Program-made: the position numbers and the translations under genes
Source: Ginglymostoma cirratum
Taxonomy: Eukaryota
Reading direction: 5' to 3'
Assembly: GCA_024137785.1 (NCBI GenBank)
Contig: JAHRHZ010000053.1
Location: 5,675,806 to 5,739,805 of the forward strand
Length of the DNA: 64,000 nt
The notes under the pieces: model-generated
Told to the model about the DNA's origin: nothing
Database searches by the model: none
Seen by the model: the letters and a program-made list of their open reading frames with translations, nothing else
Shown here: positions 9,534 through 57,779 of the stretch, piece after piece
Numbering within the stretch: position 1 is the first letter of the stretch
How the letters are laid out: every line of letters starts with the position of its first letter

Positions 9534-10031
9534 AGATAACAAGNNNNNNNNNNNNNNNNNNNNNNNNNNNNNNNNNNNNNNNNNNNNNNNNNNNNNNNNN
9601 NNNNNNNNNNNNNNNNNNNNNNNNNNNNNNNNNNNNNNNNNNNNNNNNNNNNNNNNNNNNNNNNNNNNNNNNNNNNNNNNNNNNNNNNNNNNNNNNNNNN
9701 NNNNNNNNNNNNNNNNNNNNNNNNNNNNNNNNNNNNNNNNNNNNNNNNNNNNNNNNNNNNNNNNNNNNNNNNNNNNNNNNNNNNNNNNNNNNNNNNNNNN
9801 NNNNNNNNNNNNNNNNNNNNNNNNNNNNNNNNNNNNNNNNNNNNNNNNNNNNNNNNNNNNNNNNNNNNNNNNNNNNNNNNNNNNNNNNNNNNNNNNNNNN
9901 NNNNNNNNNNNNNNNNNNNNNNNNNNNNNNNNNNNNNNNNNNNATGATGCTGCTTGGCCTGCTGTGTTCATCCAGCTCCACACCTTGTTATCTCGGATTT
10001 CCAGCATCTGCAGTACCTATTATCTCTATAT
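9534..10031 (+). mobile_element. Fold-back PLE-derived element spanning the assembly gap
   Basis: ccgtaatattttaaag is repeated at 9520-9535 and 10032-10047. The left end agataacaag is the reverse complement of cttgttatct in the right end. Confidence 0.8.
9544..9943. other. Assembly gap (400 N)
   Basis: Run of N. Confidence 1.
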
Positions 10032-39475: not shown

Positions 39476-39879
39476 ACTGAGAACTGAGTCTTCCCCTAAC
39501 AGATACAGTTAAGGTAGAATTTGAGAGGTTCTTAAGGATTACACAGAGATTGTGTACAAAATCCTCTCAGAATTCAGAGCAGGGACTTGAAGCATTCCAA
39601 TGAAAAGTCAGAGAATGATATGCTCTAGAATATTAACTCTTGTTGCCCTCTGCCTAGACACTGTGTATTTTTAGCATTTTACGTTTACCAGCATCTGCAG
39701 TTGTTTATTTCTCTATCAGAGATTTGAGAATCTTTCCTCCTCTTCTACTTAAGCCTCTGGGATTGCACCATGCAGATATAGACCTTAAAGGAGGTGCAAC
39801 ATGTACATGAGTGAATAAGAAAATGTTAAATGCTGAGGATAATTACTTAGGAGAATCGCATAAAACAGGTATTATATAT

Positions 39880-41040
39880 GATGTCCTCATTTTTCAAGGA
39901 CCGCAACTTCCCCTCCACAGTGGTCGAAAACGCCCTCGAATGTGTCTCTCGCGTTTCCCGCAACTCATCCCTCACAACACTTCCCCACAATAACAACAAA
40001 GACAGAATCCCCCTCATCCTCATGTGCCACCCCACCAACCTCCAGATCCAACGCATCATCCTCCGACACTTTTGCCATCTGCAATCCGACCCCACCACCA
40101 AAGACATTTTTCCCTCCCCGCCCTTATCTGCCTTCCGGAGGGACCACTCTCTCCGTGACTGCCTTGTCCGCTCCACACTCCCCTCCAGCCCCACCACACC
40201 CGGCACTTTTCCCTGCAACCACAGGAAGTGCTACACCTGCCCCCACATCTCCCCCCTCACCCCAATCCCAGGCCCAAGTAAACCTTCCACATCAAACAGA
40301 TGCTCACCTGCACATCTGCTAATGTGGTATACTGTATCCGCTGTTCCCAATGTGGCCTCCTCTACATCAGGGAAACCAAACAGAGGTTTGGAGACCACTT
40401 TGTGGAACACCTATGCTCGGTTCGTTTGTGACAAACGACTGCACCTCCCAGTCGCGAACCATTTCAACTCCCCCTCCTACTCCTTGGACAACGAGTCCAT
40501 CCTGGGCCTCCTCCTGTGCCACAACGATGCCACCCAAAGGTTGCAGGAACAGCACCTCATTTTTCGCTTGGGAACCCTGCAGCCCAATGGTATCAATGTG
40601 GGCTTCAAAAGTTCAAAATCTCCTCACCCCCGGCTGCATCCCAAAACCAGCCCAGCTTGTCCCCGCCTCCCTAACCTGTCCGTCCCTTCTCCCACCTGTC
40701 TACTCCTCCCACGTCAATCCCCACCCCCACCTCCTACCTACCAGCCTCACCACTGCCTCCTTGACCTATCCATCTTCCCTTGACTGACCTACCCCCATCC
40801 TAACTCCCCACCTACACTCACCTTTACCGGCTCCATCCCCGCCTCCTTGACCTGTCTGTCACCTCTCCACCTATCTGCTCCTTTATCCATCTTCCAACAG
40901 CCTCCCCCTCTCTATTTATTTCAGAATCCCCTTCCCCTCCCCCATTTCTGAAGAAGGGTCCAGACCCAAAACGTCAGCTTTCCTGCTCCTCTGATGCTGC
41001 TTGGCCTGCTGTGTTCATCAAGCTCCACACCTTGTTATCT
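39880..41040 (+). mobile_element. 5'-truncated Penelope-like element: thumb/linker, frameshifted GIY-YIG, C-rich UTR, hammerhead terminal repeat
   Basis: FFKDRNFPSTVV..CNHRKCYTC; alternative frame NVVYCIRCSQCGLLYIRETKQRFGDHFVEH; PVANHFN..LQEQHLIFRLGTLQPNGIN. HHR motif at 40948-40975. Probable TSD attatatat at 39871-39879 and 41041-41049. Confidence 0.92.
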
Positions 41041-43362: not shown

Positions 43363-45060
43363 GTGGTCCAGTTTCCCCCCACGGCTCAAAGATGCATAGG
43401 TTAGGTGGATTGGCCATGCTAAATTGGCGATGATCTTTGCGTCCTCACTGCCCACGGGTACAGTGCTGAAAGATTGGAGAGAGGCAGACATCATTCCCTT
43501 GTTCAAAAAAGGGAATAGGGATAACCCCGGAAATTACAGGCCAGTTAGTCTTACGTCAGTGGTGGGCAAATTAATGGAAAGGGCTCTGAGAGATAGGATT
43601 TATGATCACTTGGAAAGGCACAGTTTGATTCGTGATAGTCAGTATGGATTTGCGAGGGGTAGATCATGCCTCACAAACCTTACTGAATTCTTTGAAGAGG
43701 TGACCAAACACATGGATGAAGGTAGAGCAGTGGATGTGGTATACATGGATTTAAGTAAGGCGTTTGATAAGGTTCCCCATGGTAGGCTCATGCAGAAGGT
43801 AAGGAGGCATGGGATGGAGGAAATGTGGCAGATTGGAATCAGAATTGGCTGACCCTTAGAAGACAAAGGGTGGTAGTGGACGGAAAATATTCAACATGGT
43901 GCTCAGTTACGAGTGGTGTACCACAAGGATCTGTTCTGGGTCCTCTTCTATTTGTGATTTTTTAAAATGATTTGGATGAAAGGGTGGAAGGGTGGATTAG
44001 CAAGTTCGCAGATGATATGAAGGTAGGTCGCATTGTGAACAGTGCGGAGGGCTGTTCTAGGTTACAAAGCGACATTGATAGGATGCAGAGCTGGGCTGAG
44101 AAGTGGCAGATGGAGTTTAACCCTGAAAAGTGTGAGGTGATTCATTTTGGAAGGACAAACTTGAAAGCAGAATACAGGGTTAACGGAAAGATTCTTGGCA
44201 GTGTGGAGGAGCAGAGGGATCTCGGGGTTCATGTCCACAATTCCCTGAAAGCTGCCACCCAGGTGGATAGAGTTGTTAAGAAGGCGTATGGTGTGTTAGC
44301 TTTCATTAATAGAGGGATTGAGTTCAAGAGCTGTGAAATTATGCTCCAGCTATACAAAAGCCTGGTTCAGTCACATCTGGAGTATTGTGTCCAGTGCTGG
44401 TCACCTCATTACAGGAAAGATGTGGAAGCATTGGAAAAGGTGCAGAGGAGATTTACCAGGATGTTCCCTGGAATGGAGGGAAGGTCTTATGAGGAAAGGA
44501 TGCAAGATCTAGGGCTTTTCTCTTTAGAACGACGATGGATGAGAGGTGACTTGATAGAGGTATACAAAATGACCAGAGGTATAGATAGAGTAGACAGCCA
44601 GAGACTTTTTTCCTAGGATGGAGGTAACTATTACAAGGGGGCATAGTTTTAAAGTGAATGGAGGTAGATATAAGGGAGATATCAGAGGTAGGTTCTTTAC
44701 TCAGAGAGTGGTCGGGGCATGGAATGCATTGCCGGAGAGGGTAGTGGAGTCAGCCTCATTCGGGGCATTTAAGCGGCTATTAGATAGGCATATGGATGGT
44801 AGTATAAGGTAGGGGTGGAGGTTAGATAGACCTTAGGATCAGGGTAAAAGTTTGGCACAACATCGTGCTGTGCTGTGCTGTTCTATGTTCTACAAATTGC
44901 CCTTAGTGTTCAGGGATATGCAGGCTATGTGGATTAGCCATGGTTATTGCGGGGTTATGGGGATAGGGTGGGTAGCTTTTCAGATGGTTAGTGCAGCTTC
45001 AAAGGGCCAAATGGCCTACATCTGCCTACATCTGCCCCGTAAGGATTTTAGGATTCTATG
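43362..45060 (+). mobile_element. HE1/V-SINE-type SINE 3' part, split by the CR1 at about 43427-44893
   Basis: ttaggtggattggccatgctaaattg | CR1 | aaattgcccttagtgttcagggat. The hexamer aaattg occurs on both sides. Confidence 0.8.
43427..44893 (+). mobile_element. Relatively young CR1 LINE, 5'-truncated, nearly complete RT domain
   Basis: [36 protein letters not shown]; [14 protein letters not shown]; KFADD; WQMEFNPEKC; RGHSFK..FFTQRVVGAWNALP; tail gctgttctatgttcta. Few disruptions. Confidence 0.95.
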
Positions 45061-54740: not shown

Positions 54741-56235
54741 GTAATGTTCCCTCTAAGTTACGCACGTGCACAGCCACTTCAAGGTTCAATGTATGGAGAT
54801 TGGCGGTGGTGCATCAAACATGGCTTTGACTTCCAGTTCTGGAATATTGCCTGCCATTACATTACCTTCTACACCTTAAATTTAATTTTTCCAACTAGTT
54901 TTGGAATCGACCACAAAGTCCATCTTTATCTTTGAGCAGTTGAGGTGAAGTGCAAGCTGAACTGTGATATCTCCACCTCAGTTGAACCTACTCAGGCAAA
55001 TAATGAAGGAGTGGAAGGTGCAAATCCAAATTTGGAATGCCTATATTAGCCTGTCTTCATCAGTATTGCCAAGCAGCTTGTCCTTCTAGATGCTAGAGGT
55101 TGAGAGATGCTGCAGGGGTGTTGATGATTAGCATATTTGATTCATTAATGAGATACTCAGGCTTAGGCCCAATTATATCAAGTTTAAAAATGGATGAAAA
55201 GAAAATATAAGAAAATAAAAAACCGTATGGCAATCTTTAATTAACAACAATATTCAGCCAAGCAAAATAAACTCTGGAATTTATTGCTTACATCCTCTAG
55301 TTAGCACCAACTGATTCATCCATGGATTAGTGAAATAATTCATAAATAAGTAGTGTACCTTAAATAAAGGCAGTAATCAGTCATTTCTCTCTGCACGTCA
55401 TTAACTAAGGAATATGACCCTTCACAACCCTTCTTGATGAGTACAATTTAGAAATCTTCTCAACAGATGTAGCCTGGTAAGCTTCAGGGAGCAAATATTA
55501 TAGAAACTACTGTCATTGGCATAAATTGTCACATGCTCCAAGAACCTAATGGACCAGACAGTCTTTTCATCCAATAAATGTAAATGAACCAAAGCCTTTA
55601 TCCCTTGAACATTTAATGCAGCAAGTTTTCTTTTCAGTCAAAAACATGAGTTATTTTGCCCTCAGTACTGTTTAAGCTAAAGCTCAGAAAATTGATTTCA
55701 CAAATGAAGGCAAATGACCAGGACTTGTGGATATTTCGAAAGAAGTAACTTAAGCTCCTTTCACTTGATTGTTCATGATGTGCTCCGTGATACTGGGGAG
55801 ATCTGGTATAGACAGGGTGCCCACTTTGCAACCAGCACCATACAGCCTGCCAGCATGACTCCAAGATTGCTGCCAGCTTGTCATTTTATTTCTCCACATT
55901 GCCCTCATGCTGACTTTGCTGTCCATGATCTGTAGCAGCGTTCTAATGAGGATTAACACAATCTTGAGGAGCAGCACCTCATATTGTTTTTCTTGACAAT
56001 CTACACTCTTCTGAACTCAATATTCAGTTTAGCAACCTCAGGTCACAAAAAAAAAAATCACGGATAAACATTGAGGCCAAGGTTGTTTTCTGGGTTGTTA
56101 CTTTCTTTATCCAATCAAATTGCTCTCAGAGGTCTGCTATGTATCCTTTCATGCCTCAACTGGACATAATATTAGTCTCTTTACCGTATGCATGAATATT
56201 CTTTTTGGTTTTTGAATAATGAAACCTTTTGTCAG

Positions 56236-56993
56236 GAGGAGGAATACATCTTCCAAGTGTTCAAGGATAATGGATATCTAAAGAACTGGGGCACGAGATG
56301 CCTACAAGAACAGCATCAGGAAGATTCTACATGCCCCGACACACTCATCACACTACGCTACATCAGGAACACGTCAGAACTCACCACAAGACTTCTACGA
56401 CTGCTGGGCATCAGAGTGGCTCACAAGCCCACATCAACCCTACGACAAGTGCTCACCCGAACTAAAGACCCACTCCCCACCATGGACTGGACCAATGTCA
56501 TCTACAAGATCCCCTACAGAGACTGCGAGAAACACTACATTGGACAAACAGGAAGGAAACTAACAACAAGAGCACATGAACACCAACTGGCAACAAAAAG
56601 ACACGACCGATACTCACTCATCTCAATCCACATGGACAAGGAGAACCACGACTTCGACTGGGACAACACCAAGATCCTGGGACAGGCGAGGCAGAGACAA
56701 GCACGAGAATTTCTGGAAGCATGGCACTCCACGAAGCATGCTATTAATAAACACATTGAACTCAACCCCATATACATTCCACTACAGGGGAAACCCGGAA
56801 GTGAGGCAATCCATCGCAATGGACGCCAGAGTTTAAAAACCAGGCGGGAAAACACACCGACGCTTCATCAGAGGCTGCACTGAGGATGTTACCAAGCATG
56901 GTAACGAAACGTCTGCGGAACACCAAACCAGCTCGGCGAACCAACCAACCTCAACACCCACAACCCAAGCTACAAATCTACTCCAAAACCTTA
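56236..56993 (+). mobile_element. Young 5'-truncated Penelope-like element with open GIY-YIG endonuclease ORF and 15-bp TSD
   Basis: FKDNGY..LRYIRNTSE..NVIYKIPYRDCEKHYIGQTGRKLTTRAHEH..REFLEAWH..AIN. TSD gaaaccttttgtcag at 56221-56235 and 56994-57008. Confidence 0.95.
56875..56918 (+). ncRNA. Minimal type I hammerhead ribozyme, intact core
   Basis: ctgca CTGAGGA t GTTACC aagcat GGTAAC GAAA c GTC tgcgg. Stem I CUGCA/UGCGG, perfect 6-bp stem II, palindromic ACGU stem III. Predicted cleavage after 56913. Confidence 0.85.
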
Positions 56994-57779
56994 GAAACCT
57001 TTTGTCAGTTTATCTTTCCACATTTGCATCCTGTTATGGACTTTCTCTTTTGTACTTCCTGCTGACAAAATTATCGCCGCACCATCACCCACAAACCACT
57101 GGTTTACGAACTCTTACATTTCTATCTTTGTTCAATTCTCATGAAAGTGCAATGCCCTGAAATGTTAACTATTTCCCTCCACAGATTGTCCCTAACCTGC
57201 AGTGTTATTCCCAGCATTCCTTTTTTTTTTGTTTTTATTTCAGATTTCCAGGATCGACAATATTTTGTTTTAACATTAATTTAACACATTGTTTCTTCTG
57301 ATTGCTGCCACTTTGGATGTGACATTCATCTTGGGCGAAGGCAGAAAATAGATGAAATAGCATCAGCCCTCACATTTTACAGTTGCCCAGCGGGTATCAA
57401 TGGCAATCAAGCAATGTACAACAGTGATGAACTCTAATTCATTTTGTGTGATCCCTGACAAAACATATCCCTTTTTGAATCTAACTTTGCTACAAAGAAT
57501 GGGATTAATATAATGCCCAGAAAAAAACATAATAGCAGACTAGCCCAAAAACATGAGAATAAAATTTCCTAGTCTCTTATGTATTGGGCAGAATCTTCTA
57601 ACTTATATAAAGACAGACTTGATATCTCCATGGCCACCATCATTCCCTTTCTGAGAAATCATCTCAGAATTATACGCTCAAGAGGATGAAATTTGAAATT
57701 TGTTTCTCTGCAGTATCTGATTTGCACAATTTTGAATTGAAATATTTACTTGATTATTTGTTTAACAAAGTACCCCGGA

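What the first reader, a model, noticed from the sequence alone, without database searches (positions are those of the whole stretch)
56875..56918. Intact minimal hammerhead ribozyme at the 3' end of a young GIY-YIG Penelope-like element; the ORF stop codon is part of the catalytic core
Seen: CUGCA-CUGAGGA-U-GUUACC-AAGCAU-GGUAAC-GAAAC-GUC-UGCGG. Every conserved core base is present, stem II is a perfect 6 bp, stem I is 5 bp, and stem III is only the palindrome ACGU. The TGA ending the GIY-YIG ORF (56881-56883) is U4-G5-A6 of the core. The element has a perfect 15-bp TSD and an open frame, so it is probably recent. Established: PLE terminal repeats carry minimal type I hammerheads thought to cleave as dimers. 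Inference: this is the best candidate for an active self-cleaving RNA in the window, and translation termination may be coupled to ribozyme folding.
Basis: partly seen in the sequence, partly recalled or inferred. Interest (0 to 1): 0.75.

Follow-up and report, generated by a model that had tools for sequence, protein, structure and literature searches.

The report
Penelope hammerhead at a stop-start junction
A small RNA motif of a known self-cutting type ends an old, truncated jumping-gene copy in what is likely a shark genome; its core holds the gene's stop codon and, two letters on, what is likely the start codon of the next tandem copy, but this lone copy is likely inactive.

Summary
The minimal type I hammerhead (56875-56918), the TGA at U4-G5-A6 and the 15-bp target duplication are real. 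It is the known Penelope minimal hammerhead, closest to published Clonorchis/Schistosoma Cercyon motifs. 'Young' fails: the 758-bp, 5'-truncated, RT-less copy has at least 14 private substitutions (10 of 12 in the ORF change residues), and the same filled site occurs in two other organisms whose flanks differ by 3-11%. No intact partner lies in the window, and published minimal hammerheads do not cut alone. The TGA frame is the family majority, but 6 of 6 other shark proteins that reach the ribozyme cross the core in another frame, so stop-in-core is lineage-specific. It likely starts the next tandem unit's ORF: full-length relatives begin with the ribozyme-encoded peptide, anole PAc starts there, and family 3' ends pile at +108 to +110, as in PAc. 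In this lineage stop and start likely share the core, and cleavage 28 nt into the ORF would remove the start codon. The scan earlier noted a Penelope hammerhead near a start codon in another genome.

The parts
56221..56235 (+). Left target-site duplication, 15 bp; the last 2 bases also match the family's upstream sequence (microhomology)
   Evidence: loose ends before 56234 in X2 and X20
56236..56993 (+). 5'-truncated Penelope/Poseidon-group (Cercyon-like) insertion, 758 bp, the only copy of its family in the window
   Evidence: summed depth 1e4-5e5 inside against about 12 on the flanks in X1 and X2
56236..56883 (+). ORF remnant: end of the RT-side region, linker, GIY-YIG endonuclease (VIY at codons 88-90, YIG at 101-103, about 56497-56793) and a 30-codon unconserved C-terminal run into the ribozyme; 10 of 12 private substitutions change residues, among them the first Cys of CxxC
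   Evidence: 22 of 36 members of alignment A2 hit Pfam GIY-YIG at E<=0.05, the window copy itself does not
56875..56918 (+). Minimal type I hammerhead ribozyme; predicted cleavage between 56913 and 56914
   Evidence: architecture as in Fig. S3 of PMC4209133
56881..56883 (+). TGA stop of the element's ORF = U4-G5-A6
   Evidence: family majority
56886..56888 (+). ATG = A9, unpaired U, G10.1; likely start codon of the next tandem unit's ORF (a second in-frame ATG at 56898 also lies 5' of the cut)
   Evidence: PAc precedent
56886..56993 (+). First 36 codons of the likely downstream ORF, open to the end of the insert
56919..56993 (+). AC-rich stretch (83% A+C); family 3' ends pile at 56993-56995 (+108 to +110 from the ATG), a second end at 56956 (+71) defines a 37-39 nt tail; likely internal reverse-transcription start sites
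   Evidence: loose-end table; PAc starts at +111 to +118 and has a 30-40 bp tail
56994..57008 (+). Right target-site duplication; the first 2 bases may be element-derived

Best explanation
This is the minimal hammerhead of an old, 5'-truncated copy of a high-copy Penelope-like retrotransposon family, and it likely marks the junction between tandem units: the ORF's TGA is U4-G5-A6 of the core, and the ATG two bases later is likely the start of the next unit's ORF. In the parent element a tandem transcript likely served as mRNA and template. Reverse transcription likely began internally in the AC-rich stretch about 71 or 108-110 nt into the downstream ORF, which is why copies end there and carry the ribozyme near their 3' end. 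Cleavage would need a second hammerhead (pairing through ACGU) or the element's protein, and would fall 28 nt into the ORF. The stop lies in the core most likely by accident: this lineage has no 3' UTR and a small indel before stem I put the invariant UGA in frame. This copy is likely a neutral fossil that neither makes protein nor cuts. Shown: anatomy, family-wide frame, shared insertion, 3'-end positions, other frames in relatives. Inferred: use of the ATG in this family, the reverse-transcription starts, dimer or protein dependence, inactivity.
For: Old and dead: contigs of organisms A and B run from unique flank into the element at both ends (X1 56000-56263 and 56972-57250; X2 56000-56262 and 56976-57249), with 16 of 264, 30 of 278, 9 of 262 and 9 of 277 letters different. 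There are 14 near-fixed differences in 758 bp (1.8%); 10 of 12 in the ORF are nonsynonymous against 72% expected neutrally. Stop position varies: P0001, P0035, P0039 and P0065 end in TEDVT-type peptides, P0002 and P0036 read through the whole ribozyme, and schistosome-type P0008, P0048 and P0153 use the same frame; the window's +1 frame gives that peptide. One X2 contig shows a related core preceded by 5 extra bases (table 5c). Start in core: full-length P0107 (832 aa) begins MMSSRLVTKRL, and 9 of 11 other hits to its N-terminal region begin M(M)[DG]SS[RE]NPKR. These nine N-termini allow a 7-bp stem II with the full core; 4 of 939 internal-Met controls allow 4 bp or more, one being a ribozyme peptide itself. 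The two published Clonorchis motifs, translated by hand from the core, give the peptides seen in P0094/P0098 and 13 of 15 residues of P0107's N-terminus. PAc's ORF starts at the start of stem II, with the cut 26 nt on (PMC11167929). 3' ends pile at 56993-95 (626 contigs in X1, 366 in X2) and 56956 (51 in X2). Low activity: the S. mansoni minimal motif did not cut alone and cut weakly as dimer or trimer (PMC4209133); PAc's did not cut without protein.
Against: No full-length DNA copy of this family was seen, so an ORF running on from 56886 is not shown. The 36-residue peptide matches P0107 only weakly (BLASTP E 0.012; 19 of 2000 shuffles as good), and part of that likeness is forced by the ribozyme core. 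It does not match P0233, P0237 or P0242 above shuffles. The nine Sparganum N-termini are one family; P0107 allows only a 4-bp and P0233 a 2-bp strict stem. AUG at this place is not general: 10 of 56 rows of Fig. S3 by my count, and in L002 it meets a stop at codon 4. hides 145 substitution rows and 121 joints, and organisms A-C are likely not the window's species. Branches that order the shark lineages are weak (87/63, 90/66). ORFs stay open up to the ribozyme in three shark lineages and in schistosomes, which could mean selection for a stop near the start. Nothing was assayed.
Confidence: 0.74

Rival explanations
1. The UGA-GG-AUG arrangement is selected in this lineage: ribosomes ending one unit restart on the next (or on a ligated circle), and ribosome occupancy and ribozyme folding exclude each other, so cleavage switches the RNA from mRNA to non-translatable template.
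For: The frame is family-wide in organisms A-C. Stop and likely start are 2 nt apart, and both ATGs lie 5' of the cut. Sister lineage proteins stop in loop II, a few bases after the same AUG (P0001, P0039). Small ribozymes have been tied to translation initiation elsewhere (PMC13725137, passages).
Against: P0002, P0036, P0008 and P0048 read through the entire ribozyme; P0107 and P0233 end without the crossing peptide. An invariant UGA catches one frame in three. In PAc, ribozyme mutants insert normally in vitro and no RNA-seq reads ended at the cut site. It cannot apply to this copy, which has no start upstream.
Confidence: 0.17
2. One reading: a recent insertion carrying an active ribozyme that cuts transcripts of this locus.
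For: Intact core, perfect TSD and open frame. The isolated 44-56 nt motif folds stems I and II at over 0.7 probability.
Against: Filled site in two other organisms; 1.8% private divergence with a neutral pattern. Intact features are expected by chance. There is no intact partner in 64 kb, and stem I is competed out in longer context.
Confidence: 0.06
3. The ATG in the core is only part of the ribozyme consensus; this family's ORF starts further downstream (for example after an intron, as in D. virilis Penelope), and the ribozyme lies in a non-coding pLTR.
For: 46 of 56 published motifs lack this AUG. L002 has it without an ORF. The second Penelope family in the window has A at that place and its frame closes 165 nt upstream.
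Against: The closest relatives with whole ORFs start there. The 36 codons are open and line up with P0107's N-terminus up to its first conserved helix. End positions match PAc.
Confidence: 0.15

Closest known systems
Minimal hammerheads of metazoan Penelope-like elements (Cervera and De la Pena 2014, PMC4209133), above all Clonorchis sinensis (1) and (2) and Schistosoma mansoni (1), Cercyon
   Same: CUGANGA plus an unpaired nucleotide, G10.1-C11.1, a 6-7 bp stem II, a 4-5 bp stem I, helix III reduced to a palindrome; single 3' motif in 5'-truncated copies. The Clonorchis rows share UGCA-CUGA.GAU-GU, a 6-bp stem with 6-nt loop and GAAA-CGU.
   Different: No shark motif is in that paper's text or the supplement file searched. 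It does not discuss codons in the core ('stop' and 'start codon' 0 hits in the supplement file).
PAc, Poseidon element of Anolis carolinensis (Frangieh et al. 2024, PMC11167929)
   Same: ORF start at the start of stem II, cut 26 nt downstream (here +28 from the A of ATG); insertions end in an AC-rich stretch at +111 to +118 (here +108 to +110); 30-40 bp tail (here 37-39); AT-rich targets.
   Different: PAc templates include at least 145 nt of pLTR before the start, and the paper does not place the stop in the core (its GenBank supplement could not be read). Here the preceding ORF runs to 2 nt before the ATG. PAc is active in vitro; this copy is a truncated fossil.
Other shark Penelope lineages (P0001/P0035/P0036/P0039 and P0002 types; 53-59% identical)
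   Same: Same GIY-YIG domain; the ORF also runs into the hammerhead with no 3' UTR.
   Different: They read the core as T/A-E/D-D-V and stop in loop II or beyond the ribozyme; the window's lineage stops at U4-G5-A6.
Non-LTR retrozymes of animals (PMC7229834; bioRxiv 10.64898/2026.07.22.740005)
   Same: Type I hammerheads, dimer dependence in vertebrates, link to Penelope pLTRs.
   Different: Retrozymes are non-coding tandem repeats of 170-400 nt; this is a single coding fragment with a TSD.

Membership tests
Minimal type I hammerhead of PLEs | Full catalytic core C3-A9, G12-A14, A15.1-U16.1, H17 | tested here: met
Minimal type I hammerhead of PLEs | Unpaired nucleotide between A9 and G10.1; G10.1-C11.1; long stem II; short stem I; palindromic 15.2/16.2 without helix III | tested here: met
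   against the criteria
Minimal type I hammerhead of PLEs | Covariation of stems among relatives | tested here: inconclusive
   No DNA alignment of copies was available. Published Clonorchis rows and relatives' peptides imply compensatory stem II changes; one search hides minority variants.
Minimal type I hammerhead of PLEs | Self-cleavage after H17 as dimer or with protein | not testable with these tools
   needs an in vitro assay
Rfam hammerhead families | Score at gathering threshold | tested here: not met
   no hammerhead model matches; minimal motifs lack helix III, so this lowers only 'Rfam member'
EN+ Penelope-like elements | C-terminal GIY-YIG endonuclease with CCHH motif | tested here: met
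   VIY...YIG, C94 (Tyr in this copy, Cys in the family majority), C97, H116, H132; 22 of 36 alignment members hit PF01541
EN+ Penelope-like elements | RT upstream of EN in the same ORF | tested here: inconclusive
   Absent from this copy; other copies continue upstream in frame and relatives carry RVT_1
EN+ Penelope-like elements | 5' truncation, hammerhead near the 3' end, optional 30-40 bp tail | tested here: met
EN+ Penelope-like elements | Tandem or partial tandem copies forming pLTRs | tested here: inconclusive
   Single copy here; no whole genome was held
Penelope/Poseidon group (not Neptune or Nematis) | [quoted passage not shown] | tested here: met
   Linker has no CxxC; criterion from PMC8557442
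Cercyon family | Clustering with named Cercyon reference ORFs | tested here: inconclusive
   No named reference protein in hand; shark rows and trematode rows sit in an open fork; ribozyme likeness only
PAc-type start in the ribozyme | Long ORF begins at A9-U-G10.1 | tested here: inconclusive
   Met in relatives; no full-length copy of this family seen
Young or active insertion | Near-identity to the family majority and absence from related species | tested here: not met

The most novel reading that the evidence does not exclude
In this shark Penelope lineage the whole unit, ribozyme to ribozyme, is one ORF whose stop and start both sit in the hammerhead core (UGA-GG-AUG). Cleavage 28 nt into the ORF leaves a unit-length linear RNA with its start codon at the wrong end, so only the uncut tandem or a ligated circle can be translated, by stop-and-restart across two bases. 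The ribozyme is then a switch between message and template, and the 'conserved unpaired U' of this clade's hammerheads is kept because it is the U of AUG.
Probability: 0.17. Interest if true: 0.68.

Novelty: new member of a known kind. Interest (0 to 1): 0.28.

Why it matters
As a ribozyme and as a locus it is ordinary: minimal hammerheads in Penelope elements have been in print since 2014 and a start codon inside one since 2024, and this copy is an old fragment of a very large family. The value is in the family. What Penelope hammerheads do is still open (cleavage was dispensable for PAc insertion in vitro). Related shark lineages keep the same ribozyme but place the stop in the core, in loop II or beyond it. 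That is a natural series for testing whether stop position, restart and cleavage are linked. The start-in-core layout also appears to extend from the anole to tapeworm, fluke and shark elements. I found neither stop-plus-start in the core nor that wider spread in print (searches; open-licence library only).

Tried and rejected
No whole genome was held, so copies could not be aligned as DNA and covariation was not counted. Rfam found no hammerhead. Pfam found nothing for the window's own remnant. Metagenome scan: 6 distant loci at 33-45% identity; hammerhead-like motifs in 2 of 6 (L002, L003); neither informs on this family, and L002 is a counter-example for the AUG. Viral-contig scans found no relative; prokaryote genomes were not scanned. 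Sequencing runs: no RNA holder listed on record; two runs guessed to be RNA carry family sequence but nothing on the near flanks, which is no evidence on expression either way. The PDB profile search gave only distant reverse transcriptases. No host exon was identified: 3 of 12 window ORFs scanned hit Pfam, two as LINE-type RT and one as ALKBH8_N, so whether the copy lies in a transcribed intron is unknown. P0094 and P0098 join EN in frame to the core peptide; I did not count them as a third true frame because they are gene models that may be spliced. Look-ups of earlier findings by place and sequence gave nothing. Rejected: chance motif; recency from TSD and open frame; retrozyme (single coding copy). 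Supplements not seen: the PAc GenBank file and figure images, file 1 and part 3 of file 2 of PMC4209133, and all bioRxiv supplements; the PAc stop position or a shark motif could be there.

Full report
Observation. The motif at 56875-56918 is exactly as described: stem I 5 bp with one G.U, C3-A9 at 56880-86, an unpaired U, a 6-bp stem II, GAAA, the ACGU palindrome, and C17 at 56913. It is the only descriptor hit in the window, against 0 minimal hits in 100 dinucleotide shuffles. A relaxed scan finds 5 further candidates, all with core or helix III changes; 4 belong to a different family. TGA 56881-83 closes the GIY-YIG frame, and a perfect 15-bp repeat at 56221-35 and 56994-57008 brackets a 758-bp insert. 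Rfam does not model it. Alone the motif folds well, but with native flanks stem I drops to 0.03-0.51 probability.

What the element is. The insert encodes 215 residues: the end of the RT-side region, a linker without a zinc finger, and a GIY-YIG nuclease. It has no RT and no start codon. Its best relatives are shark proteins (Rhincodon, Stegostoma, Chiloscyllium, Hemiscyllium; 53-88% identity over the matched parts), then flatworm Penelope ORFs. It groups with a Stegostoma and a Rhincodon protein at 99/97. The host is therefore likely a shark (inference). By the linker criterion in PMC8557442 (passages) it is Penelope/Poseidon group. Its ribozyme most resembles the Clonorchis and S. mansoni Cercyon rows in Fig. 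S3 of PMC4209133 (main text parts 1-2 of 4 and supplement file 2 parts 1-2 of 3 read).

Age. I laid contigs of 4 of 24 listed runs on 56000-57250 at 84% likeness. Summed depth in the two large runs is 1e4-5e5 over the element and about 12 on the flanks, so the family is very large. In organisms A and B, single contigs run from unique flank 27-28 bases into the element on the left and from 18-22 bases inside it out to the right flank. The site is therefore filled in both. No empty-site joint is among the 15 joints shown (121 hidden). Those contigs differ from the window at 16 of 264, 30 of 278, 9 of 262 and 9 of 277 letters (3-11%), far above the 0.2% diversity reported within the epaulette shark (PMC10587355, passages). 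The copy differs from the family majority at 14 near-fixed places (1.8%; 145 further rows hidden). Ten of 12 in the ORF change residues, as neutrality predicts (72%), including two conserved prolines and a CxxC cysteine. At that divergence a perfect TSD (P 0.57), an open frame (P 0.57) and an untouched ribozyme (P 0.44) need no explanation. At the published 7e-10 per generation, 1.8% would be some 25 million generations (rough inference, tenfold uncertainty). The insertion is old.

The stop in the core. Within the family it holds: no near-fixed substitution in the motif and no indel of 10% or more in the element are listed, and none of the majority changes makes an earlier stop. Across lineages it does not. 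Of 228 proteins in hand, 155 had the end-of-nuclease motif and 8 showed a peptide that crosses the core in the frame xCU-GAN-GAU-GU; P0039 adds a ninth. All 6 shark proteins that reach the ribozyme use that frame: four end in or before loop II and two read through. Three schistosome-type proteins also use it. None of the proteins from the window's own lineage reaches the ribozyme. The window's +1 frame gives the same peptide, and one X2 contig shows a related core preceded by 5 extra bases. So a small indel before stem I likely put the invariant UGA in frame in this lineage; the tree is too weak to prove the direction (87/63).

The start in the core. A9, the unpaired U and G10.1 spell ATG at 56886-88, two bases after the TGA, and open 36 codons to the end of the insert. 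[quoted passage not shown] Reverse transcription starts in an AC-rich stem-loop 111-118 nt into the ORF, and a second site defines a 30-40 bp tail. Here the cut is at +28, the downstream stretch is 83% A+C, and family ends pile at +108 to +110 (626 contigs in X1, 366 in X2) and at +71 (51 in X2), followed by AT-rich target DNA. Full-length relatives agree: P0107 (832 aa) begins MMSSRLVTKRL, and 9 of 11 other hits to its N-terminal 260 residues, one Sparganum family, begin M(M)[DG]SS[RE]NPKR. The nine allow a 7-bp stem II plus core, against 4 of 939 controls at 4 bp or more. The two Clonorchis motifs in Fig. S3, translated by hand, give the P0094/P0098 peptide and 13 of 15 residues of P0107's start. 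Against: the window peptide's match to P0107 is weak (E 0.012; 19 of 2000 shuffles) and partly forced by the core; P0233 fits poorly; only 10 of 56 published motifs have this AUG; in L002 it opens no frame; and no full-length copy of this family was seen.

Mechanism. The ribozyme likely sits at the seam of tandem units. The parent transcript likely carried ORF, stop, two bases, start, next ORF. Reverse transcription from internal AC-rich sites likely copied backwards through the ribozyme and stopped early, giving this 758-bp insert with a 2-base microhomology at its 5' joint. Cleavage likely needs a second motif or the element's protein: the S. mansoni motif did not cut alone and cut weakly as dimer or trimer, and PAc's cut only with protein, was dispensable for insertion in vitro and left no reads at the cut site. 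This copy has no intact partner within the window, so it is likely silent. Cleavage in a parent RNA would strip both early ATGs from the ORF; whether that is used as a switch, or whether ribosomes restart across UGA-GG-AUG, is untested and is the novel case (0.17).

Verdict. A new member of a known kind, in an old dead copy. The stop-plus-start junction was not found in print and gives a natural series to test what Penelope hammerheads do. One earlier scan note places a Penelope hammerhead just upstream of a start codon in another genome; I did not test it. Interest 0.28.

Noticed in passing
window 39851-40990 (+): A second, frameshifted Penelope fragment of Neptune type (Cys-rich linker before a broken GIY-YIG-like stretch, read by eye), followed at 40948 by a minimal hammerhead with G12 changed; its long frame closes at 40783, 165 nt before the core, and it has A, not U, after A9.
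   Followed up: partly
window 11056 (-), 11360 (+), 63302 (+): Three more damaged copies of that second hammerhead family; 11056 and 11360 are an inverted pair about 300 bp apart, as described for Penelope insertions.
   Followed up: partly
P0003, P0037, P0081: Shark gene models (MAP3K7, ZSWIM7 and CUEDC2 isoforms) end in Penelope endonuclease sequence, suggesting exonised or mis-annotated insertions.
   Followed up: no
tree; window 56875-56918: After sharks, the nearest named relatives are flukes and tapeworms, and the ribozyme is strikingly like the Clonorchis motifs. Horizontal transfer between fish and flatworm parasites is possible but was not tested; the deep forks are open.
   Followed up: no
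P0035 C-terminus: Its peptide (TDEVS) implies U at core position 7 and A after A9, which would move the AUG three bases upstream in the same frame, a possible compensation; no DNA seen.
   Followed up: no
L002 1655-1695; L003 reverse strand near 1060: Hammerhead-like motifs in metagenome contigs with distant GIY-YIG matches; in L002 the ORF stops 598 nt before the core.
   Followed up: partly
window 43400-44616 (+): LINE-type reverse transcriptase fragments in two adjacent frames (RVT_1 E 4e-17 and 1e-4); many more such fragments are scattered through the window.
   Followed up: no
window 9544-9943: Assembly gap of 400 N.
   Followed up: no
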